From positions 115,490 to 179,489 of the IMG/VR virus record IMGVR_UViG_3300036987_000083: a stretch of 64,000 bases of DNA; one strand, written 5' to 3'. Under the pieces are notes generated by a model. That model had not been told where the DNA came from. It made no database searches and saw only the letters and a list, made by a program, of their open reading frames with translations. Origin of the DNA: a virus. How positions within the stretch are numbered: the stretch's first letter is position 1; the number at the start of each line of letters is the position of its first letter. This document shows positions 23,272 to 59,330 of the stretch, piece after piece. The position numbers and the translations under genes were made by a program.

Positions 23272-23382
23272 GGGCCAGTGCATGGGCAAAACCGGGTTCG
23301 ATTCCCGGCATCTCCACTCTATGGGGATGAACTGGTGTTCCTCACGCGCGGGGGTGAACGGGTTCGACTCCCGTCTGGTCCA
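23272..23382 (+). ncRNA. Two-headed tRNA-like dumbbell RNA (two acceptor+T-arm heads, both G3:U70)
   Basis: Outer GGGCCAG/CTGGTCC with ACGGG T-arm; inner CCGGG T-arm with CATCTCC-ACTCTAT-GGGGATG hairpin. Confidence 0.65.
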
Positions 23383-23383
23383 C

Positions 23384-23588
23384 AGTCTAGAAGGCAAATG
23401 GAAAGCCACTGGTAAAACGGAACCAGCGCCGAAAGGCACTGAAGCACGGGCTACCTCGAAAGAGGGTGAACGTAGTCACCTGCATGGTTGCGGATGCACC
23501 GAACGGGTCCCAAAAGGGTTCGCCAGGGAAGCGAGTTTCCAAGGGTGATGTAGCTTTTTCATAGAGGGTTCGATTCCCTCCTAGGCTA
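23384..23588 (+). ncRNA. 205-nt tRNA-like RNA with a giant multibranch variable domain
   Basis: AGTCTAG/CTAGGCT; D-like GGC/GCC; CTGGT/ACCAG; T-arm GAGGG-TTCGATT-CCCTC; insert closed by GGGCTAC/GTAGCTT. Confidence 0.6.
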
Positions 23589-24637: not shown

Positions 24638-25135
24638 GTGGAAGCTCTTAAACTAGTATTGGATCTCCCACAGAAAAGGCAGAACACTCCGTTCACCTGT
24701 GGGCCAGTAGCCCTGTCTATGGTTTTGGCAGGATTTGGGGTAGTGAGCACCGAAAAGGGTCTCGCGAAACTCATGAAGGCCTCCCCCAAGCATGGAGTGC
24801 CTCCAGCTACCATCGCAAAAACGGCCAGGAAATTCGGTCTCAAGGCTAAAGCCGTTACGGGACTCACGATTGGTCAACTTGAAAAGCACATCAAGGCTGG
24901 ACGACCTGTAATCGCGGCCATCCAATCCTGGGCCAAGCGGCCCGTGAACTACGCAACGAGTTGGGAGGACGGGCACTACGTGGTGGTAGTCGGTATCGAC
25001 AGCCAGAACGTCCACTTGAGGGACCCTTCAACTCCATCTCTGCGGACTCTCTCCAGAGAGAGCTTCATGCGCAGGTGGCATGACTACAGCAAGGATGAAG
25101 TCTTTGTGCAGCTAGGAATCATTTTCAGTAGGTAA
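24638..25135 (+). CDS. C39-family cysteine peptidase
   Basis: RQNTPFTCGPVALSMVL..GHYVVVVGIDSQNVHLRDP (Cys-His-Asp). Confidence 0.85.
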   Translation: MEALKLVLDLPQKRQNTPFTCGPVALSMVLAGFGVVSTEKGLAKLMKASPKHGVPPATIAKTARKFGLKAKAVTGLTIGQLEKHIKAGRPVIAAIQSWAKRPVNYATSWEDGHYVVVVGIDSQNVHLRDPSTPSLRTLSRESFMRRWHDYSKDEVFVQLGIIFSR

Positions 25136-27501: not shown

Positions 27502-27568
27502 AGATTCGAGCGCAGTCAGCTCCATGGTTGTTCACCCGTCGTACAAAACATACAAGGAGGCCGGTAAC

Positions 27569-28114
27569 ATGGAAACTCTAGTTCTGAGCGCGTCGTATGA
27601 GCCAGTTAGCCGGGTCTCCTGGCAGCGAGCGATTACTCTTATTTGGGAAAACAAGGTTGAGGTCATTGAGGAGTACGAGAACCGGTTTGTGCACTCGGTT
27701 ACTCTCGAATTCAAGATGCCTTCAGTCATTCGGTTCCTGAAGGCCATTCGTGGGCGGAAGCGCGCTATCAAGTTCAGCCGCGAGAACGTGTTTGCTCGTG
27801 ACAACGGTCGTTGCCAGTACTGCGCAGTGAAACTGGCGCGTGCGGAATCCACTTACGACCACGTAATCCCTCGGGCAATGGGAGGGCATACGCGGTGGGA
27901 GAACGTTGTAATCGCGTGCTACGCCTGCAACCAGAAGAAAGGCTGCAAGACACCTGAGCAGGCAAAGATGAAGCTGCTCACGCAGCCCATCAAGCCGAAG
28001 AAGCTTCCTGATACACTTCGGCTCACCTTCCAAGTGACAAAGGATACTCCGGATTCGTGGAAGCAGTGGATTGCCTCCGTGAACTACTGGAACACCGAGT
28101 TGGATCAGGACTAA
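27569..28114 (+). CDS. HNH endonuclease (McrA/HNH_5-like)
   Basis: VLSASYEP..FSRENVFARDNGRCQYC..TYDHVIPR..GG..WENVVIACYACNQKKG. Confidence 0.9.
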   Translation: METLVLSASYEPVSRVSWQRAITLIWENKVEVIEEYENRFVHSVTLEFKMPSVIRFLKAIRGRKRAIKFSRENVFARDNGRCQYCAVKLARAESTYDHVIPRAMGGHTRWENVVIACYACNQKKGCKTPEQAKMKLLTQPIKPKKLPDTLRLTFQVTKDTPDSWKQWIASVNYWNTELDQD

Positions 28115-58052: not shown

Positions 58053-59330
58053 TTGACGATGGCGTTGTCCAGGTTGCAGGGTACTCAGACGGAAGTCTTG
58101 TTGTGGTCCCCTCTTGAAGAAGTCGAGCTTGACGCACAGAAGCAGCTCATCAACACCGCTTCGCTTGCTCAGGCAGTGAAGGTGCTGTCGATGCCCGACG
58201 TGCACACCGGCTACGGTGTTGCTGTTGGGTCGGTTGTCGCTTTGAAGGACGCGGTTTGTCCGAATATCGTCGGCGTAGATATCGGCTGCGGCATGATGGC
58301 TTACCGCACCAATCTCACTGCTGACATGATGCCTAAGGATTTGTCCTCTCTGCGTGCGCGCATTGAAGAGTTCATTCCTATGGGCACAGGACAGTGCCAC
58401 GAAGACCCCTCTGAGTTGATTAAGGCCCCTCAGTACGAGGAGTTGTGGGCTCGCGTAGCTGCTGCGGACCAAACCAAGTGCACCATGGAGAAGGCCAAGC
58501 AGCAAATGGGCACCTTGGGTTCTGGAAACCACTTCATCGAGGTGTGTCTCGACTCGGAAGAGCACGTGTGGCTGATGCTGCATTCTGGTAGCCGTAATTT
58601 TGGCCTCCAGGTGGCGGAAGTCTACCAGTGGAAGGCCTCGATGCTTCCCATCAACGCAAACCTTCCTGACCAATCTTTGGCGGTGCTACCTCGTAGCTCT
58701 CCGGAGTTCATGGCCTATTGGACCGACATGCAGACGGCGCAGCTCTACGCAAAGCTGAACCGCGATACCATGTTTGAGTTGCTCCTTCGGGCACTTAAGG
58801 CTGAAGGCCTTAAGGTCGAGACTACGGACATTGGCGTCAACTGCCACCACAATTACGCCATGGAAGAGGTTCATGAGGGGGAGACGCTTGTCGTAGCCCG
58901 TAAGGGCGCCATCAGCGCAAGGAAGGGCGAAATGGGCATCATCCCGGGCGCGATGGGACGCAAGAGCTTCATCGTAGAGGGTTTGGGCAACCCTGAGAGC
59001 CTGCTGAGCGCCAGCCACGGAGCTGGCCGAAAGATGAGCCGTACCAAGGCGAAGAATACCTTCTCGCTAGACGACCTTCGCGCTTCCACCAAGGGAGTCG
59101 AGTGCCACATCGGCAAGGATGTCCTTGATGAGATTGCGGAGGCCTACAAGGACATCGAAAAGGTGATGCTCTATCAGGCGGATCTTGTCCGTCCCCTGTA
59201 TGAGCTGCGCTCCATCCTAACCGCCAAGGGCCATGATCAGAAAATCAAGGTCGATCGAAAGGCGGAAGCAAAGGCGCGAGAGGCAGAGCGTCGCGAGGCT
59301 CGCACCTTCAAGCAAGGTTGCCGTCAGTAG
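58053..59330 (+). CDS. rtcB: RtcB RNA-splicing ligase
   Basis: MPDVHTGYG..VGVDIGCG..GTLGSGNHFIE..LHSGSR..HHNY..RKGA..SASHGAGR..DEIAEAYKDI. Confidence 0.95.
   Translation: MTMALSRLQGTQTEVLLWSPLEEVELDAQKQLINTASLAQAVKVLSMPDVHTGYGVAVGSVVALKDAVCPNIVGVDIGCGMMAYRTNLTADMMPKDLSSLRARIEEFIPMGTGQCHEDPSELIKAPQYEELWARVAAADQTKCTMEKAKQQMGTLGSGNHFIEVCLDSEEHVWLMLHSGSRNFGLQVAEVYQWKASMLPINANLPDQSLAVLPRSSPEFMAYWTDMQTAQLYAKLNRDTMFELLLRALKAEGLKVETTDIGVNCHHNYAMEEVHEGETLVVARKGAISARKGEMGIIPGAMGRKSFIVEGLGNPESLLSASHGAGRKMSRTKAKNTFSLDDLRASTKGVECHIGKDVLDEIAEAYKDIEKVMLYQADLVRPLYELRSILTAKGHDQKIKVDRKAEAKAREAERREARTFKQGCRQ

What the first reader, a model, noticed from the sequence alone, without database searches (positions are those of the whole stretch)
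23384..23588. 205-nt tRNA with a giant multibranched variable domain
Seen: 7-bp acceptor AGTCTAG/CTAGGCT-A, D-like arm GGC-AAATGGAAA-GCC, stem CTGGT-AAAACGGA-ACCAG with an 8-nt non-canonical loop, and a canonical T-arm. Between them lie ~130 nt containing GCC-GAAA-GGC and a junction closed by GGGCTAC/GTAGCTT with hairpins CCTC-GAAA-GAGG, GGTGA/TCACC, TGCAT/ATGCA and GGAA/TTCC. Inference: a tRNA scaffold used to process and stabilise a separate RNA domain, or a compact intron-like insertion.
Basis: seen in the sequence. Interest (0 to 1): 0.75.

Follow-up and report, generated by a model that had tools for sequence, protein, structure and literature searches.

The report
Phage tRNA-shaped RNA, giant conserved arm
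This 205-base phage gene makes a tRNA-shaped RNA that cannot read codons and carries a large, conserved extra arm. It belongs to a widespread bacterial and phage RNA family that sits beside RNA-repair genes (RtcB, Ro60, Band-7) and has never been tested experimentally.

Summary
The element at 23384-23588 (+) is real. It lies in a 42-tRNA array of a 179-kb uncultured phage. ARAGORN and Rfam miss it.

A motif search found 22 phage and 86 bacterial homologues (108 unique, 148-279 nt). All have a 7-bp acceptor stem, D arm, T arm and an anticodon-position hairpin. Compensatory changes are abundant.

The loop of that hairpin is not an anticodon loop. It holds a conserved A-rich motif that pairs with a U-tract in the conserved 3' motif of the giant arm. 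This pseudoknot is supported by covariation, so the RNA cannot decode.

Three of its inner hairpins are replaced by family-conserved long-range helices.

Where family members lie near RtcB (10 loci), Ro60 (10), Band-7 (5) or one conserved HNH protein (13), the gene is always on the same strand. This phage encodes RtcB and that HNH protein, but no Ro60 or Band-7.

Best reading: a non-decoding tRNA mimic of the RNA-damage response, probably the computationally predicted "b7a-tRNA" class (2016, untested). It is processed like a tRNA and acts as a protein platform or nuclease decoy. The function is inferred.

This scan already met the family on other DNA.

The parts
23384..23390 (+). acceptor stem, 5' strand (pairs with 23581-23587)
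   Evidence: 7 bp, covaries in 108 homologues
23393..23407 (+). D-like arm: 3-bp stem and a 9-nt loop with GG
   Evidence: D stem 96% paired, and all 4 aligned pairs show compensatory changes
23409..23426 (+). anticodon-position hairpin: 5-bp stem and the 8-nt loop 23414-23421 (AAAACGGA), which is not an anticodon loop
   Evidence: stem positions 2-5 are 94-99% paired, and the loop motif is conserved in all members
23415..23418 (+). loop bases AAAC that pair with GUUU at 23535-23538 (pseudoknot; only 4 bp in this copy)
23428..23437 (+). small hairpin h1 (GCC-GAAA-GGC)
   Evidence: a hairpin at the same place in many larger members
23440..23444 (+). base helix of the giant arm (P_x), 5' strand; pairs with 23557-23561. 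In this copy it may be extended by 23448-23453 with 23551-23556
   Evidence: 5-9 bp in homologues, cognate mean 7.1 against 5.6 for mismatched partners
23446..23473 (+). conserved side module (GCUACC, hairpin 23454-23465, GGGUGA), shared with Myxococcota-type members
23475..23481 (+). helix P_a, 5' strand; pairs with 23543-23549 and encloses the conserved core
   Evidence: all 5 aligned pairs show compensatory changes
23486..23503 (+). conserved 5' core motif (GGUUGCGGAUGCACCGAA)
   Evidence: near-invariant in the family
23504..23524 (+). variable apical hairpin of the arm
   Evidence: length and sequence vary between members
23525..23540 (+). conserved 3' core motif (GGGAAGCG-N-GUUU, then CC; N = A here)
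   Evidence: invariant columns
23543..23549 (+). helix P_a, 3' strand
23557..23561 (+). helix P_x, 3' strand
23564..23580 (+). T arm: 5-bp stem and loop TTCGATT
23581..23588 (+). acceptor stem 3' strand and discriminator A; no encoded CCA
27524..28114 (+). HNH_5 protein (possible partner). It is 60% identical to the bacterial HNH protein that lies beside family members in 13 loci
58143..59231 (+). RtcB match (within ORF 58053-59330), RNA ligase (possible partner), same strand, 35 kb downstream

Best explanation
The gene encodes a non-decoding, tRNA-shaped small RNA. It belongs to one widespread family of bacterial and phage RNAs.

Shown:
- A covarying acceptor stem, D arm, T arm and anticodon-position hairpin.
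- A giant extra arm built from two covarying long-range helices around two near-invariant motifs.
- A pseudoknot between the A-rich loop of the anticodon-position hairpin and the U-tract of the 3' motif, which removes any anticodon function.
- Strict same-strand linkage of family members to RtcB, Ro60, Band-7 and one HNH protein family where these lie nearby.
- In phages, placement inside tRNA arrays.

Inferred:
- The RNA is transcribed with the tRNA array, cut out by RNase P and RNase Z, and given CCA.
- It folds into an L shape whose elbow and acceptor end look like a tRNA to tRNA-binding enzymes.
- Its locked lower half and conserved arm serve as a platform that recruits or regulates RNA-repair and RNA-surveillance proteins (phage RtcB, or host Ro60, Band-7 or RtcB).
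- This would help the phage keep its tRNA pool working when host ribonucleases attack tRNAs.
For: - Family and structure: 108 unique homologues; covariation, 0 of 500 shuffles reach the observed values; loop nucleotide X against motif nucleotide N: C:G 76, T:A 3, G:T 5, G:C 2, A:T 3; base helix.
- Not a known RNA family.
- Context. RtcB in 10 loci, Ro60 in 10, Band-7 in 5 and HNH in 13, all on the same strand. One locus reads Band-7, 40 nt, element, 75 nt, RtcB.
- tRNA-array placement.
- This phage: RtcB and the HNH homologue.
- Genome-level Ro60: 10 of 25 phage records and 20 of 50 bacterial genomes, against 2 of 14 control genomes.
- Literature: the b7a-tRNA prediction beside RtcB and Band-7, sometimes Rsr, as described in bioRxiv 10.1101/312249.
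Against: - No expression, processing or binding data exist for any member.
- Only 16 of 86 bacterial loci and 5 of 22 phage loci have RtcB, Ro60 or Band-7 within the few kb of fetched DNA around the element.
- Several complete phage genomes with the RNA encode none of them.
- In this phage RtcB is 35 kb away, and Ro60 and Band-7 are absent.
- The window copy is a weak member: 49.7 bits with the 5' end misaligned, A instead of U at position 8, and a pseudoknot of only 4 bp with a G/A mismatch.
- Identity with the published b7a-tRNA could not be checked, because the paper is not held. Earlier scan notes describe other tRNA-mimic RNAs in Band-7/RtcB operons.
Confidence: 0.6

Rival explanations
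1. Decoy: the RNA is a nuclease-resistant tRNA look-alike. It binds host anticodon nucleases or other tRNA-targeting toxins as a competitive inhibitor, and its pseudoknot protects the anticodon-position loop from cleavage.
For: - The loop is locked by the pseudoknot.
- It lies in a phage with 42 tRNAs and RtcB.
Against: - A decoy would be expected to imitate the nuclease's target loop. Here the loop is conserved, unlike any anticodon loop, and buried.
- The elaborate invariant core and the operon linkage to Ro60 and Band-7 suggest specific partners, not mimicry alone.
Confidence: 0.2
2. Ro60 partner: the RNA is a Y-RNA analogue whose conserved arm is the Ro60 binding site. It works only with (host) Ro60.
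For: - It lies directly upstream of Ro60 on the same strand in several phage and bacterial loci.
- Ro60 is enriched in genomes that carry the RNA.
- Many members have CGAA in the 5' core motif, which recalls the Y-RNA Ro60 site.
Against: - This phage has no TROVE gene.
- 30 of 50 bacterial carriers and 15 of 25 phage records have none.
- CGAA is absent from several Ro60-adjacent copies.
- The topology differs from YrlA, and a YrlA-like RNA coexists with the element in locus L038.
Confidence: 0.15
3. Cofactor or guide of the conserved HNH nuclease that lies beside it in 13 bacterial loci and is present in this tRNA array.
For: - HNH is on the same strand, 225-2900 nt away, in 13 loci from several phyla.
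- The window protein 27524-28114 is 60% identical to one of them.
- The HNH domain scores against IscB and Cas9 models.
Against: - Only 13 of 86 bacterial loci have it.
- In phages the homologue is 4-50 kb from the RNA, or absent.
- HNH genes are common in phage tRNA arrays for unrelated reasons.
- There is no variable guide-like segment.
Confidence: 0.05
4. A decoding tRNA with an intron or an oversized variable arm. Ser and Tyr tRNAs were not called in the array.
For: - A full tRNA frame is present.
- ARAGORN lists no Ser or Tyr tRNA in the window.
Against: - The loop is 8 nt here and 5-19 nt elsewhere, with the same conserved motif and no U33 or variable anticodon.
- The loop pairs with the arm.
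- The acceptor identity is not conserved.
- No intron family matches.
Confidence: 0.03
5. Part of a two-piece (permuted) tmRNA together with the neighbouring RNA at 23272-23382.
For: There is a sub-threshold hit to the Rfam permuted tmRNA model at 23292-23367.
Against: - The element closes on itself with its own acceptor stem in 108 homologues, most of which have no such neighbour.
- Position 3:70 is U:G here.
- No conserved tag reading frame is present.
- ARAGORN finds no tmRNA.
Confidence: 0.02

Closest known systems
[quoted passage not shown]
   Same: It is a tRNA-like non-coding RNA encoded beside RtcB and a Band-7 protein, occasionally beside Ro60, and has never been validated. Family members here show exactly that linkage, including Band-7, element, RtcB within 332 nt.
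   Different: The published alignment could not be compared. It is described as strongly resembling an authentic tRNA, whereas this family has a 75-200-nt conserved arm and a pseudoknot. Most copies, including this one, are not next to Band-7. Phage copies sit in tRNA arrays. Other tRNA-mimic RNAs also occur in such operons, according to earlier unchecked scan notes.
YrlA-type bacterial and phage Y RNAs (Rfam RF02553; PMC4201824)
   Same: Both are tRNA mimics with conserved D and T arms. Both are encoded near Ro60 and RtcB on the same strand. Both are proposed to be RNase P and CCA-enzyme substrates and cofactors of RNA surveillance or repair.
   Different: YrlA is permuted (T arm, closed acceptor hairpin, D arm), and its ends form the Ro60-binding stem. 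Here the ends form an open acceptor stem, the anticodon-position hairpin is closed, and the extra domain sits at the variable-arm position. RF02553 does not match the element.
tmRNA
   Same: Both have a tRNA-like acceptor and T-arm top half combined with a large pseudoknotted domain. Some members carry G3:U70 (16 of 108).
   Different: This family has no tag reading frame, a complete D arm and anticodon-position hairpin, no conserved alanine identity, and a much smaller size.
Class II tRNAs (Leu, Ser, Tyr) and tRNA-Sec
   Same: Both have a long extra arm emerging between the anticodon stem and the T arm. The D stem here is 3 bp.
   Different: The arm here is 5-10 times longer, conserved in sequence, and pairs with the anticodon-position loop. 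There is no anticodon.

Membership tests
decoding tRNA | 7-nt anticodon loop with U33 and an anticodon that varies with identity | tested here: not met
   The loop is 8 nt here and 5-19 nt in homologues. It always carries the same A-rich motif, which pairs with the arm.
decoding tRNA | cloverleaf frame: 7-bp acceptor stem, D arm, 5-bp T stem with a TTCRA loop | tested here: met
decoding tRNA | recognised by tRNA detectors (ARAGORN, Rfam RF00005) | tested here: not met
b7a-tRNA (Burroughs and Aravind 2016) | tRNA-like fold | tested here: met
b7a-tRNA (Burroughs and Aravind 2016) | encoded beside Band-7 and RtcB genes (sometimes Rsr/Ro60) | tested here: inconclusive
   The family meets it: Band-7 in 5 loci, RtcB in 10 and Ro60 in 10, all on the same strand. 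For the window, RtcB is 35 kb away and there is no Band-7 or Ro60.
b7a-tRNA (Burroughs and Aravind 2016) | sequence or structure match to the published b7a-tRNA alignment | not testable with these tools
   The paper is not held.
YrlA / Y RNA | 5' and 3' ends form a Ro60-binding stem, and the tRNA-like module is permuted with a closed acceptor hairpin | tested here: not met
   The ends form an open acceptor stem. RF02553 gives no match on the elements.
YrlA / Y RNA | within about 4 kb of Ro60 on the same strand | tested here: not met
   There is no TROVE gene in this phage. The feature is met for only 8 of the family loci.
tmRNA (one-piece or permuted) | G3:U70, a tag reading frame, and detection by ARAGORN or Rfam | tested here: not met
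   U3:G70 here; no tmRNA call; no conserved frame.
group I intron in a tRNA gene | an intron core of about 200 nt or more, inserted in the anticodon loop | tested here: not met
   The insert is about 130 nt and sits at the variable-arm position. No Rfam intron match up to E = 10.

The most novel reading that the evidence does not exclude
The invariant core may itself be an active RNA and not a passive scaffold. The core consists of two purine-rich internal loops clamped to the anticodon-position loop by a pseudoknot. It could be a sensor or catalyst acting on damaged RNA ends in RtcB-type repair, or the RNA cofactor of the co-occurring HNH nuclease.
Probability: 0.08. Interest if true: 0.85.

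Novelty: new member of a known kind. Interest (0 to 1): 0.55.

Why it matters
RtcB, Ro60 and Band-7 RNA-repair systems are widespread, yet their RNA partners and substrates in bacteria are largely unknown.

This family is large. Two motif scans alone gave 108 unique copies, across at least eight bacterial phyla and in many large phages. It is elaborately conserved and absent from Rfam, so genome annotation misses it.

The work here supplies a clear consensus architecture: a tRNA frame, a locked loop and a conserved core. It also identifies cultivable carriers. Together these make the long-standing question of what tRNA mimics do in RNA repair directly testable.

For phages, it adds a candidate counter-defence RNA to the tRNA arrays that offset host attacks on tRNA.

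Tried and rejected
- An exact 25-mer of the T arm plus acceptor found only an unrelated tRNA-Glu.
- Relatives found through the neighbouring C39 peptidase had no tRNAs and no element.
- Tail-tube relatives: the closest contig ends after seven tRNAs. BLAST matches in three others were chance hits in coding DNA. Only G007 carried a homologue.
- An exact two-motif pattern was too strict.
- A two-sequence MAFFT alignment was unreliable in the middle.
- The first covariance model also picks up ordinary tRNAs and misplaces the 5' end of long members, so helices were parsed from anchors instead.
- Longest-stem tests for helix P_a and for the short helix closing the side module did not separate cognate from mismatched partners. 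I rely for P_a and make no claim for the short helix.
- RtcB co-occurrence in phage records is weak: 3 of 25.
- A loop-E or K-turn reading of the core, and a Ro60-site reading of CGAA, were considered by eye and not pursued, because those bases are not conserved across subfamilies.
- The Burroughs and Aravind paper and two reviews could not be opened.

Full report
**Setting.** The window is the last 64 kb of a 179-kb IMG/VR phage record that is 88% complete. It carries a myovirus-type tail sheath and tube and an array of 42 tRNA genes, all on the + strand. The element at 23384-23588 lies in a 564-nt gap between two tRNA-Ala genes. Neither ARAGORN nor Rfam reports anything for it, even at E = 10. 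No convincing protein frame crosses it. No promoter-like or + strand terminator-like site flanks it. It is therefore most simply part of the array transcript; this is an inference.

**Observation.** Energy alone therefore proves little.

**Homologues.**
- A weak BLAST match led to a clear homologue in a distantly related phage, G007, whose tail tube protein is 40% identical. Every stem of the tRNA frame differs in sequence there but still pairs, and three internal motifs are identical.
- A pattern joining the conserved 3' motif to the T loop found 26 stretches in viral contigs and 108 in bacterial genomes.
- After removing chance hits in coding DNA, 22 phage and 86 bacterial elements remain. 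Of these, 108 are unique and they measure 148-279 nt.
- Carriers include Myxococcota, Cyanobacteria, Actinomycetes, Deinococcus, Planctomycetota, Armatimonadota, Bacteroidales and Firmicutes.

**Structure of the family.**
- Each acceptor position is 98-100% canonical with 5-6 pair types. The T stem is 100% paired. Positions 2-5 of the anticodon-position stem are 94-99% paired.
- On an 83-sequence MAFFT alignment, 91.5% of cells pair against 73.5% in shuffles. None of 500 shuffles reaches the observed value on any of the five measures, and sliding the partners drops pairing to 32-48%.
- The minimal forms show that the extra domain is one long arm. A covarying helix (P_a) encloses a 5' motif, a variable apical hairpin and a 3' motif.
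- Larger forms, including the window, add three things: a small hairpin, a second covarying base helix (P_x, 5-9 bp, cognate mean 7.1 against 5.6 for mismatched partners) and a conserved side module.

**The loop is not an anticodon.**
- It always holds a run of A followed by C and a nucleotide X.
- The 3' motif holds N-G followed by three or four U.
- X and N covary: C:G in 76 sequences, T:A in 3, G:T in 5, G:C in 2 and A:T in 3. When X is not G, 13 of 20 sequences still pair, although the matching N bases are rare overall.
- The five aligned pairs are 95.6% paired.
- The loop is therefore clamped to the arm by a pseudoknot and cannot decode.
- The window belongs to an 11-member class with a G/A mismatch at this pair, so its pseudoknot has only 4 bp.

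**The window's own fold.**
- Forcing the family helix P_a (23475-23481 with 23543-23549) costs only 2-4 kcal/mol relative to the minimum.
None of the 35 other members with the same module has its 3' partner.
I regard them as artefacts of single-sequence folding.

**Genomic company.**
- In phages the element sits inside tRNA arrays, co-oriented and 4-25 nt from neighbouring tRNAs.
- Across the loci, every nearby RtcB (10 loci, 15-5400 nt), Ro60 (10), Band-7 (5) and member of one HNH family (13) is on the same strand as the element.
- One Bacteroidales locus reads Band-7, 40 nt, element, 75 nt, RtcB.
- Ro60 genes occur in 10 of 25 phage records and 20 of 50 bacterial genomes that carry the RNA, against 2 of 14 control genomes. 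RtcB occurs in only 3 of 25 phage records.
- This phage encodes RtcB; the match runs 58143-59231 inside ORF 58053-59330. It has no Ro60 or Band-7.
- Its HNH_5 protein at 27524-28114 is 60% identical to the bacterial HNH that neighbours the RNA.
- The record holds a single copy of the element.

**Comparison with the known.**
- The Wolin laboratory's YrlA paper (PMC4201824) and structure preprint (10.1101/312249) describe tRNA-mimicking Y RNAs next to Ro60 and RtcB. They also cite a predicted "band 7-associated tRNA" next to Band-7 and RtcB, occasionally next to Rsr, that has never been validated.
- The family's linkage fits that description, so I file it there provisionally. The original paper could not be opened.
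- Earlier notes of this scan describe other tRNA mimics in such operons.
- It is not YrlA. The topology is unpermuted, and in one phage a YrlA-like RNA and this element coexist upstream of Ro60.
- It is not tmRNA, a class II tRNA or an intron-containing tRNA (see the membership table).

**Mechanism.**
- Shown: the fold, the locked loop, the conservation and the operon linkage.
- Inferred: tRNA-type maturation, an L-shaped mimic that presents a tRNA elbow and acceptor end, and a conserved arm that binds or regulates repair and surveillance proteins. In this phage that would support maintenance of the tRNA pool alongside RtcB.
- A nuclease-decoy role, as suggested for YrlA in PMC7790460, is the main rival.

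**Earlier scan notes.** This scan had already met the family on other DNA. Those notes gave me the Ro60 lead, which I tested here.

Noticed in passing
window 15858, 23601, 29620, 34193, 38330, 50163, 62298: The 12-nt palindrome GACCACGTGGTC (up to 1 mismatch) occurs 7 times, where 0.23 are expected. One copy lies 13 nt after the element. The same palindrome appears in related phages (L011, L015).
   Followed up: partly
window 27524-28114: An HNH_5 protein inside the tRNA array is 60% identical (E = 4e-91) to a deltaproteobacterial protein. That protein lies on the same strand beside family members in 13 bacterial loci. Full-length homologues occur in 7 of 25 phage records carrying the RNA.
   Followed up: partly
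window 58053-59330: The phage encodes a full-length RtcB RNA ligase (355.8 bits).
   Followed up: partly
window 23292-23367: A sub-threshold Rfam hit to permuted tmRNA (40.8 bits, gathering score 47) falls in the adjacent two-headed tRNA-like RNA. That RNA is a separate finding of this scan.
   Followed up: no
window 24638-25135: A C39-type papain-like peptidase gene is embedded in the tRNA array.
   Followed up: no
L038 424-493: A YrlA-like RNA (33.7 bits, sub-threshold), two tRNAs, a tRNA-like element and the giant-arm RNA all precede a phage Ro60 gene on one strand.
   Followed up: no
L035 9242-9396; L029 4836-4996, 5003-5143, 6636-6763; L027 28-175, 1125-1282, 4244-4364: Weak matches of 120-160 nt to the covariance model lie in other phage tRNA arrays. 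They may be further oversized tRNA-like RNAs of other kinds.
   Followed up: no
L048, L066, L074, L095, L120, L137, L144: In cyanobacteria the element follows an HNH gene and an alr0857-family gene on the same strand. RtcB lies further downstream in some of these loci.
   Followed up: partly
L141, compared with L079: One Deinococcus-type copy appears to carry about 70 extra nt inside its D-arm region, relative to a near-identical 208-nt copy.
   Followed up: no
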